From Escherichia coli (GTDB taxonomy: Bacteria > Pseudomonadota > Gammaproteobacteria > Enterobacterales > Enterobacteriaceae), in the NCBI RefSeq assembly GCF_003334385.1, contig NZ_QOWN01000106.1: DNA of 1,950 bases; one strand, given 5' to 3'. The notes below the pieces were generated by a model. It was not told where the DNA came from. It saw only the letters and a list, made by a program, of their open reading frames with translations, and made no database searches. Shown here in pieces: positions 954-1,950 of the stretch. The position numbers and the translations under genes are program-made. Positions within the stretch are counted from its first letter, which is position 1. Every line of letters begins with the position of its first letter.

Positions 954-1031
954 ATGAGAGCGGCGAGACATCAGATTTTCTTTATATATCCGATGTTGAA
1001 CTGTTTTATTTGTATACAGATAATTTTATAG
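954..1031 (+). CDS. Candidate upstream small ORF / leader peptide (25 aa, MRAARHQIFFIYPMLNCFICIQIIL), hydrophobic
   Basis: ATG at 954-956 is preceded by a consensus-like aggag at 942-946 with a 7-nt spacer. The TAG stop at 1029-1031 lies 10 nt upstream of the main ATG (1042) and overlaps its weak aggg ribosome-binding site. It is too short for the supplied ORF track. Coding status is unproven. Confidence 0.35.
   Translation: MRAARHQIFFIYPMLNCFICIQIIL
996..1024 (+). promoter_or_regulatory. Candidate sigma70-type promoter TTGAAC-N17-GATAAT
   Basis: The -35-like TTGAAC at 996-1001 and -10-like GATAAT at 1019-1024 are separated by 17 bp, each 5/6 to consensus. The predicted start near 1031 would leave only an ~11-nt leader before ATG 1042 and lies inside the small ORF, so function is uncertain. 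Confidence 0.3.
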
Positions 1032-1041
1032 GGTATACCAC

Positions 1042-1950
1042 ATGAGCAAGAAATTTACAAAGACTATTCTTTCATCTGCTGTTGCCGGTCTGTTGTTGGT
1101 GAGTGGTGGGGTTGTTGCGGCAAATCCTAAGGACGTAAATATTGGGGGCGAGTACATCGTAAAATTTTACAATGATGGGGAAGGTGCCGAGATAGTAAAA
1201 GCAAAAGGAAAAAAAGAGGTTTTATTAGGTGCTATTAATACAACAACAGGAAGCATCATGACCTTTAATGAAAAGGAGGCTGCTAAAAGTAAAACGCAGG
1301 ATGATTTTAATTCTATTGTGTATCCTGTCTACTTACCTGAGTTAAAGCTGGAAAATATAAAATCCCTAAATGTCGATGATATAAAGAAAATACAAGAAAT
1401 AAAAAAGAATGTGTCTGAGGTTGTTACATCTGCCAACTCAGCTGAGTATTTATCTGCTATAAGAAGTGGCGGTAATACTGAGGCTTACTTAGCAATTAAC
1501 AAAACATCTCCAGCTTTATCAAAAGAGTACTCTCGCATTTCTGGGAATATCGAACAGCTGAATAAAGACACCACTTTTGCAATTGACGCTGACGGCAACA
1601 TTACTCTGGATGAGACAGTCGGTACAGGTGAGCGCTATGGTGTGAAGGATGTTGTGGCTGATCTTGTTGCTGACACGACTGTGTATGCCGAAGAAGATGG
1701 TTCACTGACGATGGATAACAGTGCTCCAGCAAGAAAGCGTGTTAATGAAGCACTGGTTGACCTGGACAAATCTGTTCGTGAGCGTACCACTGTTGGTGTG
1801 AGTTCTGACGGCACCCTGACCCGTGCAGAAGGTGCAAAGAACACCATTTCTGTTAACGATGGTCTGGTGGCCCTGTCTGGTCGTACTGACCGTATTGATG
1901 CAGCAGTTGGTGCCATTGATGGCCGTGTCACCCGTAACACGCAATCCATT
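1042..1950 (+). CDS. 5' part of a secreted surface protein (3'-truncated by the window edge): Sec signal peptide, AT-rich lysine-rich N-terminal region of unknown family, then a putative trimeric-autotransporter (YadA/Eib-like) stalk
   Basis: Frame 1 is open from ATG 1042 to the window end (303 codons), and 1042 is the first start codon after the in-frame TAA at 1021-1023. The N-terminus MSKKFTKTILSSAVAGLLLVSGGVVAA-NPKD has a basic n-region, hydrophobic core and AXA-type cleavage site. The C-terminal part of the window (...NTISVNDGLVALSGRTDRIDAAVGAIDGRVTRNTQSI) has coiled-coil-like periodicity with Asn/Ile at recurring positions, as in trimeric-autotransporter stalks. Family assignment is from memory, not a search. 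Confidence 0.85.
   Translation, partial: MSKKFTKTILSSAVAGLLLVSGGVVAANPKDVNIGGEYIVKFYNDGEGAEIVKAKGKKEVLLGAINTTTGSIMTFNEKEAAKSKTQDDFNSIVYPVYLPELKLENIKSLNVDDIKKIQEIKKNVSEVVTSANSAEYLSAIRSGGNTEAYLAINKTSPALSKEYSRISGNIEQLNKDTTFAIDADGNITLDETVGTGERYGVKDVVADLVADTTVYAEEDGSLTMDNSAPARKRVNEALVDLDKSVRERTTVGVSSDGTLTRAEGAKNTISVNDGLVALSGRTDRIDAAVGAIDGRVTRNTQSI

What the first reader, a model, noticed from the sequence alone, without database searches (positions are those of the whole stretch)
996..1044. Best sigma70-like promoter match lies inside the uORF and would give a near-leaderless adhesin mRNA
TTGAAC-N17-GATAAT predicts a start near 1031, only about 11 nt before ATG 1042. If used, the adhesin would be translated from an almost leaderless mRNA, independent of the uORF. 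If a more upstream promoter is used, translation would be uORF-coupled. Two such alternative modes could make expression conditional, which is interesting for a horizontally acquired surface protein.
Basis: inference. Interest (0 to 1): 0.4.

Follow-up and report, generated by a model that had tools for sequence, protein, structure and literature searches.

The report
Promoter-like match inside conserved eib leader
The promoter-like hexamers are really there, but they match no better than chance and occur in only one lineage of prophage eib adhesin genes, and they lie inside a conserved, folded 5' leader, which suggests the adhesin mRNA normally starts about 100-140 bases further upstream.

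Summary
The window holds the end of a prophage tail-fibre-assembly gene, an 807-nt AT-rich spacer, and the start of an Eib-family trimeric autotransporter adhesin (ATG 1042). TTGAAC(996-1001)-N17-GATAAT(1019-1024) exists as described and is the best sigma-70 match upstream of the gene on the coding strand. Equally good matches arise in 8-32% of shuffled controls. Only one of six eib leader lineages ("type A", this window) has the -35 at workable spacing.

All eib cassettes share about 150 nt before the ATG. This shared leader contains a hairpin whose arms co-vary (958-1006), a U-rich tract, and an invariant palindromic box (ATTTGTATACAGAT, 1008-1021). It also contains an upstream segment complementary to the ribosome-binding site or start codon. 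In this window GCUCAUG (950-956) pairs with CAUGAGC (1041-1047). The -35 hexamer lies in the least conserved stretch of the leader. The uORF is present in three of the six lineages and its peptide is not conserved.

My best reading (confidence about 0.55, inferred) is a long structured leader transcribed from a weak upstream promoter near 892-924. The internal promoter is unproven but not excluded (about 0.25). No transcription-start data could be found. 5' end mapping would decide.

The parts
1..234 (+). 3' end of the prophage tail-fibre-assembly gene (DUF4376; ORF-191A-like)
   Evidence: RefSeq and GenBank annotation of near-identical loci
892..897 (+). TATAGT, a -10-like hexamer at the 5' edge of the homology shared by all eib cassettes. 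T1, A2 and T6 are kept in nearly all lineages (TATAGT, TACAGT, TACACT, TACAAT, TAATGT). It is a candidate upstream promoter -10 (predicted start about 904) with a poor -35.
   Evidence: Alignments. It is the second-best PWM hit in the window (7.0 bits). Inter-type identity rises from 0.2-0.36 to about 0.6 at about 884. Inference only; one metagenomic variant has TATAGC.
900..939 (+). HP1, a perfect 12-bp hairpin (GGAAAUUCCGAA...UUCGGAAUUUCU). It corresponds to the 'stem_loop' annotated in the P-EibA GenBank record.
   Evidence: Fold; stem_loop feature of AF151091. AU-rich hairpins occur at the same place in most other lineages.
918..924 (+). Second conserved -10-like element (CATATT/TAAAAT here; TATATT, TAAAAT or TACAAT in the other lineages). 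Alternative upstream promoter -10 (start about 930).
   Evidence: recurrent PWM hit with start about -107 to -112 in types A, C, 9 and 6. Inference.
954..1031 (+). 25-codon uORF with SD AGGAG at 943-947. It spans HP2 and the box, and its stop TAG overlaps the eib SD. Lineage-specific and not a conserved peptide.
950..956 (+). GCUCAUG, the 5' strand of a long-range helix with CAUGAGC (1041-1047). This helix buries both the uORF AUG and the eib AUG.
   Evidence: Fold of 900-1062: -39.5 kcal/mol, z -3.95, 0 of 200 shuffles as stable. P(AUG paired) = 1.0. 7-nt perfect complement reached by 75/2000 shuffles.
958..1006 (+). HP2, the conserved leader hairpin. Its 3' arm contains the proposed -35. It is followed by a U-rich tract and looks terminator/attenuator-like in the other lineages. 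It is weakest in this window.
   Evidence: Window: -13.8 kcal/mol, z -2.1. Other lineages: z -1.65 to -6.6. On the unfitted MAFFT alignment 76.8% of cells pair against 39-51% when partners are slid, 8 pairs show compensatory change, and 0/500 shuffles reach the observed score.
996..1001 (+). TTGAAC, the -35-like hexamer of the finding. Specific to the type A lineage; natural variants are TTGAGC and TTGAGT.
1008..1021 (+). ATTTGTATACAGAT. TTTGTATACA (1009-1018) is invariant in every eib leader. It is a 12-14-bp perfect palindrome in several lineages (TTTGTATACAAA; ATTTGTATACAAAT in L039). Function unknown: candidate protein operator or RNA element.
   Evidence: I4; identity 0.85, the highest in the leader
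1019..1024 (+). GATAAT, the -10-like hexamer of the finding. Kept in types A and C; AATCAT, AAGAAA, AATAAA and AACTA- in the others.
1030..1033 (+). Shine-Dalgarno AGGG of eib, 8 nt before the ATG. It is overlapped by the uORF stop and by the palindrome GGTATACC (1032-1039).
1042..1950 (+). 5' part of an Eib-family trimeric autotransporter adhesin gene. It has a signal peptide (MSKKFTKTILSSAVAGLLLVSGGVVAA), an AT-rich variable head, and a C-terminal part nearly identical to EibA in the full-length orthologue.
   Evidence: YadA_anchor Pfam on the paralogue EibD. G+C shift at about 1575.

Best explanation
Positions 996-1044 are the 3' end of a conserved, structured 5' leader that travels with every prophage eib adhesin gene. 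The interval contains the 3' arm of a co-varying hairpin (HP2, 958-1006), a U-rich tract, and an invariant palindromic box (1008-1021). It also contains the Shine-Dalgarno (1030-1033) and the start codon (1042). The TTGAAC-N17-GATAAT match is a lineage-specific coincidence. It arose because, relative to other lineages, substitutions in the hairpin arm and a 3-nt longer U-tract put a TTG-containing hexamer 17 nt from an AT-rich hexamer.

I infer that the main eib mRNA starts about 100-140 nt upstream of the ATG. The promoter would be weak, non-consensus and probably activator-dependent, in the conserved block around 892-924. The leader then controls expression. In four lineages an upstream anti-SD segment pairs with the ribosome-binding site. 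In this window the segment GCUCAUG (950-956) pairs with CAUGAGC (1041-1047) and buries the start codon. HP2 plus its U-tract may additionally act as an attenuator. In this lineage, translation of the 25-codon uORF would open both structures and deliver ribosomes 10 nt before the eib ATG.

Shown here: the hexamers, their chance level, their lack of conservation, the conserved block, the hairpin covariation, and the predicted pairings. Inferred: that the leader acts as RNA, where transcription starts, and any attenuation or coupling.
For: 1. The downstream gene is an Eib-family adhesin in a prophage late region.
2. The match is at chance level.
3. No + strand sigma-70-like site lies upstream of eib in the other five leader lineages. 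PWM scores at the homologous site are only 3-7 bits, against 10.2 here.
4. Identity between lineages jumps at window position about 884 and holds to the ATG. It is lowest at 987-1006, where the -35 lies (0.34-0.35), and highest at the box (0.85).
5. HP2 is predicted at the same place in all six lineages with different arm sequences: z -1.65 to -6.6, 76.8% of cells paired against 39-51% slid, 8 compensatory pairs, 0/500 shuffles.
6. The SD is predicted paired with an upstream anti-SD in types C, 9, 4 and 6 (P 0.80-1.0). This is reached by only 1-12 of 200 shuffled leaders in four of the five representatives tested; the second type 4 representative, L004 (P 0.80), is matched by 38/200.
7. Every lineage has a 6-8-nt perfect complement between the block at about -118 to -78 and the translation start region, with a different sequence in each lineage.
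8. The window leader 900-1062 folds to -39.5 kcal/mol, z -3.95, with the eib AUG in a 7-bp helix.
9. An eibG clone carrying 168 bp of upstream sequence complements a deletion (bioRxiv 10.64898/2025.12.25.695649). This fits a promoter inside the conserved block, although vector read-through is not excluded.
Against: No transcription-start data exist in anything I could reach. The candidate upstream promoters are weak (7.0 and 4.2 bits in the window) and are not called by the tool scan.

Formal covariation for the anti-SD helix on the sequence-based alignment is weak: one compensatory pair, and the covariation score is not above shuffles. In this window and in type 12 the SD itself is predicted to be more open than in shuffled leaders (0.39 against 0.59). 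HP2 is weakest in this window (z -2.1), so leader control may have decayed in exactly this lineage.

The six lineages share descent, so the per-lineage tests are not independent. The structures were derived from these same sequences. An invariant palindrome lying in the spacer of the proposed promoter is also what a repressor-controlled promoter would look like.
Confidence: 0.55

Rival explanations
1. TTGAAC-N17-GATAAT is a working sigma-70 (or sigma-S) promoter, perhaps newly gained in the type A lineage. It gives a short, unstructured transcript that bypasses the leader and coexists with an upstream start. The palindromic box in its spacer would then be an operator for a regulator.
For: It is the best match on the coding strand, with ideal 17-nt spacing, A at position 2 and T at position 6 of the -10, an AT-rich upstream flank and an AT-rich discriminator. 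TTGA and ATAAT are kept in all of the roughly 56 type A instances sampled (variants TTGAGC, TTGAGT, AATAAT). Type A has a weakened HP2 and no anti-SD, as if leader control had been relaxed. The transcript 1029-1090 is unstructured (z +0.82). AT-rich acquired DNA often carries weakly active promoters (general knowledge).
Against: The match is at chance level. It is absent in five of six lineages. The type A copies are 93-99% identical, so their conservation says little. The transcript would begin at or inside the SD, which predicts poor translation (inference). It would leave unexplained why about 150 nt of structured leader is conserved.
Confidence: 0.25
2. HP2 with its U-tract is a true terminator. 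It ends a separate upstream transcript (a small RNA of about 100 nt from about 904-930, or read-through from the late operon). In all lineages eib is transcribed from a non-consensus, activator-dependent promoter organised around the invariant palindrome, for example with IbrAB as activator. Starts would be near 1025-1031 in every lineage.
For: The structure is a hairpin with a G+C-rich base followed by UUUGUAU in all lineages; types 4, 6 and 12 have strong U-runs. The box is the most conserved element and is a 12-14-bp palindrome, typical of a dimeric DNA-binding protein site. Eib expression needs the IbrAB activator in K-12 lysogens, according to Sandt et al. 2002 (J Bacteriol 184:3640). That paper was not held in the library; I rely on my recollection of its abstract and on its citation in PMC7649339.
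Against: The complementarity between the upstream block and the translation start in all six lineages makes sense only if both lie on one RNA. The loops are 11-13 nt and the stems are interrupted, so the tool's terminator scan does not call HP2 in any lineage. No -10 with T at position 6 is kept downstream of the box in types 4 and 12.
Confidence: 0.1
3. eib has no promoter of its own. It is expressed only by read-through from the phage late operon (Q-type antitermination) in the fraction of cells that induce the prophage.
For: The gene lies directly downstream of the tail-fibre genes on the same strand. No consensus promoter is conserved.
Against: The same 150-nt leader plus eib occurs behind unrelated upstream genes: IS21 and IS66 transposases and LPD5/LPD38 genes. 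This is the behaviour of an autonomous cassette. eibG with 168 bp of upstream sequence is expressed from a plasmid. Expression responds to growth phase, temperature and agitation (PMC4352079, PMC5450701).
Confidence: 0.1

Closest known systems
Sigma-70 promoters of lambdoid prophage 'moron' genes (for example bor and lom of lambda), which are expressed from the lysogen
   Same: An accessory surface-protein gene inserted downstream of tail genes, with a hairpin after the gene (stem_loop after eibA in AF151091). It behaves as a mobile cassette found behind different upstream genes.
   Different: No consensus promoter is conserved across the cassette family. The only good match is lineage-specific and at chance level. 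The cassette also carries a long structured leader, which is not part of the classical moron description.
5' UTR elements that hide the ribosome-binding site or start codon, such as RNA thermometers (ROSE, fourU, Yersinia lcrF) and other translational riboregulators
   Same: An upstream segment is complementary to the SD (types C, 9, 4, 6) or to the AUG (this window, type 12), giving predicted high pairing probability. Eib production is reported to depend on temperature and growth conditions (PMC5450701, PMC4352079).
   Different: The helix is long-range (about 80-100 nt apart) and encloses another hairpin. No match to any Rfam family. Melting with temperature was not tested. In this window the SD is predicted open, and only the AUG is paired.
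Leader-peptide attenuators, in which a translated leader ORF runs through a terminator hairpin (pyrBI type)
   Same: In this window a 25-codon ORF with a strong SD runs through a hairpin plus U-tract and stops just before the main gene.
   Different: The ORF is absent from three of the six lineages and its peptide is not conserved. The hairpin in this window is weak. No termination has been shown.
Activation of eib genes by IbrA/IbrB (Sandt, Hopper and Hill 2002)
   Same: It concerns the same gene family. The need for an activator fits the lack of a strong conserved promoter.
   Different: The cis target of IbrAB is not known to me and the paper was not available. The link to the palindromic box is speculation.

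Membership tests
Sigma-70 promoter | -35 and -10 hexamers close to TTGACA/TATAAT with a 16-18 nt spacer, A at position 2 and T at position 6 of the -10 | tested here: met
   TTGAAC (4/6), N17, GATAAT (5/6)
Sigma-70 promoter | A match better than expected by chance in sequence of this composition | tested here: not met
   3 sites found against 4.0 +/- 2.3 expected. An equal or better match occurs in 32% of shuffled intergenic regions and in 8% of shuffled proximal 150 nt.
Sigma-70 promoter | Hexamers and spacing kept in homologous upstream regions | tested here: not met
   Kept only in the type A lineage. There are no + strand sites in types 6, 9, 4, 12 or C. Type C has TTGCGG 14 nt from GATAAT. 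The -35 lies in the least conserved segment.
Sigma-70 promoter | A mapped primary 5' end 5-9 nt downstream of the -10 | not testable with these tools
   No TSS data in the searchable literature. The contig look-up returned only genome and metagenome assemblies.
Leaderless mRNA | The transcript starts at or within a few nt of the AUG and has no SD | tested here: not met
   The predicted start at 1029-1033 leaves a 9-13 nt leader that still carries GGG of the SD. It would be a short-leader mRNA, not a leaderless one.
Functional uORF / leader peptide | The ORF and its start are conserved among homologous leaders | tested here: not met
   Present in types A, 9 and 6 (22-25 codons, different peptides, and a different frame in type 6). 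Absent in C and 4. ATG-TAA in type 12.
Intrinsic terminator / attenuator | A stable G+C-rich hairpin immediately followed by a U-tract | tested here: inconclusive
   Hairpin plus UUUGUAU is present in all lineages (z down to -6.6). In the window the stem is weak (-13.8 kcal/mol, three G-U pairs at the base). The loops are 11-13 nt, and the tool scan does not call it.
SD/AUG-sequestering 5' UTR (RNA-thermometer-like) | The translation start region is base-paired with an upstream segment of the same RNA, more than chance predicts | tested here: inconclusive
   Met in silico for the SD in types C, 9, 4 and 6: reached by 1-12 of 200 shuffles, except representative L004 (38/200). Met in silico for the AUG in the window. 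The window SD is open (0.39), and formal covariation is weak.
SD/AUG-sequestering 5' UTR (RNA-thermometer-like) | The structure opens with temperature or a ligand and changes translation | not testable with these tools
   Needs reporter fusions or structure probing
Known RNA family (Rfam) | A score above the family's gathering threshold | tested here: not met
   No hit at E<=1 in the window. Five other lineages gave only far sub-threshold noise.
Eib family of trimeric autotransporter adhesins (downstream gene) | YadA-type C-terminal anchor and Eib stalk, in a prophage context next to tail-fibre genes | tested here: met
   The full-length orthologue in strain SCU-104 matches the window at 98.6% DNA identity. 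Its last roughly 160 residues are almost identical to EibA. RefSeq product is 'YadA C-terminal domain-containing protein'. The window itself stops before the anchor.

The most novel reading that the evidence does not exclude
The roughly 150-nt leader shared by all prophage eib adhesin genes may be an undescribed cis-regulatory module with three parts: a co-varying hairpin with a U-tract, a segment that masks the ribosome-binding site or start codon, and an invariant 12-14-bp palindrome (ATTTGTATACAAAT). The palindrome could be the still-unknown target of the IbrA/IbrB activator pair (ParB-like plus PAPS-reductase-like proteins; this description is from memory). In the type A lineage the module may be in the process of being replaced by an internal promoter and a uORF.
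Probability: 0.2. Interest if true: 0.55.

Novelty: new member of a known kind. Interest (0 to 1): 0.3.

Why it matters
Eib proteins bind immunoglobulins, confer serum resistance, and drive the chain-like adherence of LEE-negative Shiga-toxin-producing E. coli. They are poorly expressed in many strains and respond to growth phase, temperature and agitation, and the reasons are not understood (PMC4352079, PMC5450701).

Knowing where the mRNA starts and what the leader does would explain this strain- and condition-dependent expression. It would also give the IbrAB activator a testable target. For the scan itself, the lesson is practical. In AT-rich acquired DNA, a 9/12 promoter match next to a gene is expected by chance. 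Comparison with paralogous cassettes separates such a match from the elements that are actually conserved.

Tried and rejected
- **Rfam.** A search of the window at E<=1 found nothing. Five other leader lineages at E<=10 gave only sub-threshold noise.
- **Pattern scans for more leader types.** The scan of 100,044 representative genomes returned only chance hits in Firmicutes and other unrelated organisms. The viral and metagenome scans returned many more copies but no new leader type.
- **Transcript-like contigs.** The look-up by exact protein returned only genome and metagenome assemblies.
- **Literature.** Searches for an eib promoter, a transcription start, IbrAB or H-NS found nothing. The two Sandt and Hill papers are not held.
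- **RNAalifold.** On the plain MAFFT alignment it found only the small box hairpin, because the hairpin arms are out of register between lineages. I therefore mapped each sequence's own fold onto the alignment columns.
- **Known operator motifs, by eye.** LexA (CTGT-N8-ACAG; here N11), FNR, CRP, PhoP, sigma-28, sigma-E and sigma-54 motifs do not fit or are not conserved. TATACA as a sigma-S-type -10 lacks the T at position 6 and the C at -13.
- **Box pairing with GGGUAUACC.** Pairing of the GUAUAC box with the GUAUAC in GGGUAUACC is possible in types A, 9 and 12. It does not co-vary with GGAUAUCC in type C.
- **DsrA resemblance.** ACAUCAGAUUU at 967-977 resembles stem-loop 1 of DsrA as I recall it. 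This rests on memory only and has no Rfam support.
- **Flanking cassette genes.** orf-156 and orf-60 match only PHROGs of unknown function.
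Full report
**What the window is.** Megablast places the window in prophage late regions of 95 of 5,426 complete E. coli genomes and in P-EibA and related phages.
- Bases 1-234 are the end of a DUF4376 tail-fibre-assembly gene (ORF-191A in P-EibA).
- Bases 235-1041 are an unannotated AT-rich spacer.
- ATG 1042 opens a gene that RefSeq calls 'YadA C-terminal domain-containing protein'.

The full-length orthologue has a different head from EibA, but its last roughly 160 residues are almost identical to EibA.

**The observation.** TTGAAC is at 996-1001 and GATAAT at 1019-1024, with 17 nt between them. ATG is at 1042, and the 25-codon ORF 954-1031 encloses both hexamers. It is the only coding-strand hit of the tool's scan. 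It is also the best hit in a simple position-weight scan of -260..+30 (10.2 bits).

The match is not distinctive:
- The tool finds 3 sites in the window where shuffles give 4.0 +/- 2.3.
- A coding-strand match at least as good occurs in 32% of dinucleotide shuffles of the spacer and in 8% of shuffles of the last 150 nt.
- A 9/12 site occurs in 24-30% of shuffled proximal sequence.
- The leader is 32-33% G+C.

**Comparison with other eib cassettes.** I collected eib upstream regions from E. coli genomes, phage records, viral contigs and metagenomes. They fall into six leader lineages:
- type A: this window and eibA;
- type C: eibC, D, E and relatives;
- types 9, 4, 6 and 12, which I named after the loci in which I first saw them.

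The cassette sits behind different upstream genes: tail-fibre assembly genes, LPD5/LPD38 genes, and IS21 and IS66 transposases. It therefore moves as a unit. Mean identity between lineages is 0.2-0.36 upstream of window position about 884. It then rises to about 0.6 and stays there to the ATG. Within this shared block, the lowest identity (0.34-0.35) is at 987-1006, which holds the proposed -35. The highest (0.85) is at 1007-1021.

**Fate of the hexamers.** The tool finds no coding-strand sigma-70-like site upstream of eib in types 6, 9, 4, 12 or C. In type C the homologous TTGCGG lies only 14 nt from GATAAT. Type A has a 3-nt longer U-run and TTGAAC in its place. GATAAT is kept in types A and C but is AATCAT, AAGAAA, AATAAA or AACTA- in the others. 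Within type A (about 56 sampled instances) the hexamers are TTGAAC, TTGAGC or TTGAGT, and GATAAT or AATAAT. These copies are 93-99% identical, so this says little. The promoter-like match is thus a property of one lineage and not of the eib cassette.

**What is conserved in 996-1044 instead.**

1. *A hairpin (HP2, 958-1006 here).* It is predicted at the same position in all six lineages although the arm sequences differ. Energies range from -13.8 (window) to -27.7 kcal/mol and z-scores from -1.65 to -6.6. I mapped each sequence's own fold onto the sequence-based alignment and counted pairs. This gave 76.8% of cells paired against 39-51% when partners are slid, 8 pairs with changes on both sides, and none of 500 shuffles reaching the observed pairing or covariation score. 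One caveat applies: the structure was derived from these same, related sequences.

2. *A U-rich run that merges into TTTGTATACA.* This sequence is invariant in every eib leader and forms a perfect 12-14-bp palindrome in several lineages.

3. *The Shine-Dalgarno and the ATG.*

The proposed -35 is the 3' arm of HP2, and the proposed -10 abuts the palindrome.

**Evidence that the leader works as RNA.** In types C, 9, 4 and 6 the Shine-Dalgarno is predicted to pair (P 0.80-1.0) with an upstream segment. The pairs are UAUCCUG:CAGGAUA, AUACCCU:AGGGUAU and UCCUCAUG:CAUGAGGA. Only 1-12 of 200 leaders with shuffled upstream parts reach this, except for one type 4 representative (L004, 38/200). In this window and in type 12 the SD is predicted open (0.39 and 0.35). 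Here, GCUCAUG (950-956) pairs with CAUGAGC (1041-1047) and buries the start codon. The whole window leader 900-1062 folds to -39.5 kcal/mol, z -3.95.

Every lineage has a 6-8-nt perfect complement between the block at -118..-78 and the translation start region, with a different sequence in each (per-lineage shuffle frequencies 0.018-0.18). Strict column-wise covariation for this helix is weak. On the MAFFT alignment 83% of cells pair against 26-52% slid, but only one pair shows a compensatory change. This is partly because the partner shifts between lineages. I regard the masking helix as likely but not proven. If it is real, the functional mRNA must start upstream of about 930-946.

**Where the promoter might be.** Two -10-like hexamers keep T1, A2 and T6 across lineages. 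One is at the very edge of the shared block (TATAGT, 892-897; predicted start about 904). The other is at 918-924 (predicted start about 930). Their -35 partners are poor. That fits the reported weak expression of eib and its need for the IbrAB activator (Sandt et al. 2002; not held in the library, cited in PMC7649339). An eibG clone with 168 bp of upstream sequence is functional. These placements are inference.

**The uORF.** In this window it has a strong SD (AGGAG, six nt before ATG 954). It runs through HP2 and the box and ends at TAG 1029-1031, which overlaps the eib SD. Its AUG lies in the helix that masks the eib AUG. Translating it would plausibly open the leader and hand ribosomes to eib. 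Types 9 and 6 have comparable ORFs with different peptides (a different frame in type 6). Types C and 4 have none, and type 12 has ATG-TAA. It is a lineage feature, not a conserved gene.

**The near-leaderless idea.** A start 5-9 nt after GATAAT falls at 1029-1033, at or inside AGGG (1030-1033). The product would have a 9-13-nt leader with a truncated SD at its 5' end. That is a short-leader mRNA, not a leaderless one. It would be unstructured (z +0.82) but, from general knowledge of initiation, probably poorly translated. Nothing excludes weak firing of this site. Type A has the weakest HP2 and has lost the anti-SD, so it is conceivable that this lineage gained an internal promoter. I put that at about 0.25.

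**Verdict.** Its main interpretation is unsupported, and its fallback (an upstream start with a long leader) is favoured. The more interesting object is the conserved eib leader itself. It matches no Rfam family, and I found no description of it beyond a 'stem_loop' feature in the 2000 GenBank records. All mechanistic statements are inference from sequence comparison and folding, and 5' end mapping would settle the matter.

Noticed in passing
window 235-720 (minus strand hairpins at 242-259, 371-388, 538-559): Three G+C-rich hairpins, each followed by a T-run on the minus strand (5 terminator-like sites against 1.4 expected). The exact repeat ATACAGAATTTTCGTA occurs at 462 and 639, 177 nt apart. 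This looks like two or three tandem units that could be small minus-strand genes or RNAs. The segment is unannotated, occurs in only 27 of 5,426 genomes, and is always found with type A eib. There is no Rfam hit.
   Followed up: partly
window 1008-1021 and 799-808: The invariant box ATTTGTATACAGAT has a second, inverted partial copy (GTATACAAAT) about 200 bp upstream in type A (I1). GTATAC cores also seem somewhat frequent in eib loci, for example 3-4 extra copies in the 3-kb loci L004 and L012. No statistics were done.
   Followed up: partly
window 877-886: A perfect 10-bp palindrome GTGATATCAC lies just upstream of the conserved block. It is partly shared with type 4 (GGATATCAC).
   Followed up: no
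window 1032-1039: A palindrome GGTATACC lies between the SD and the ATG. It is GGATATCC in type C and GATATATC in type 4. In types C and 9 it is explained as the partner of the upstream anti-SD segment GGAAUAUCC / GGAAUACCC.
   Followed up: yes
window 1304-1331 (minus strand): The best consensus promoter match in the whole window (TAGACA-N16-TAAAAT, 10/12) is antisense, inside the AT-rich 5' part of the eib coding sequence. It would give an antisense RNA running into the leader. It was not examined in other lineages.
   Followed up: no
window 1042-1950: The gene is mosaic. G+C is 31-39% up to about 1575 and 49-53% after that. BLAST matches to other eib genes break into pieces, with a variable head and a near-identical EibA-like C-terminal part.
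   Followed up: partly
L103 (metagenome contig), leader and start of gene: This is a recombinant cassette. It has a type 4 leader up to the box, joined to the type C ribosome-binding site and coding start (ACAGGATATCCATAATGAGTAAA). This shows that exchange occurs within the leader.
   Followed up: no
window 967-977: ACATCAGATTT in the 5' arm and loop of HP2 resembles stem-loop 1 of the E. coli sRNA DsrA as I recall it. Type 12 extends the resemblance (GTCAGGTTTTCTGGTG). This is from memory only, and there is no Rfam DsrA hit.
   Followed up: partly
L001 5185-5837; L007 2650-3123 (downstream of eib): Two small genes (orf-156 and orf-60) follow eib in nearly every locus. They match only PHROGs of unknown function (phrog_6585, phrog_2014, phrog_9340) and no NCBIfam model. 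They may belong to the same cassette.
   Followed up: partly
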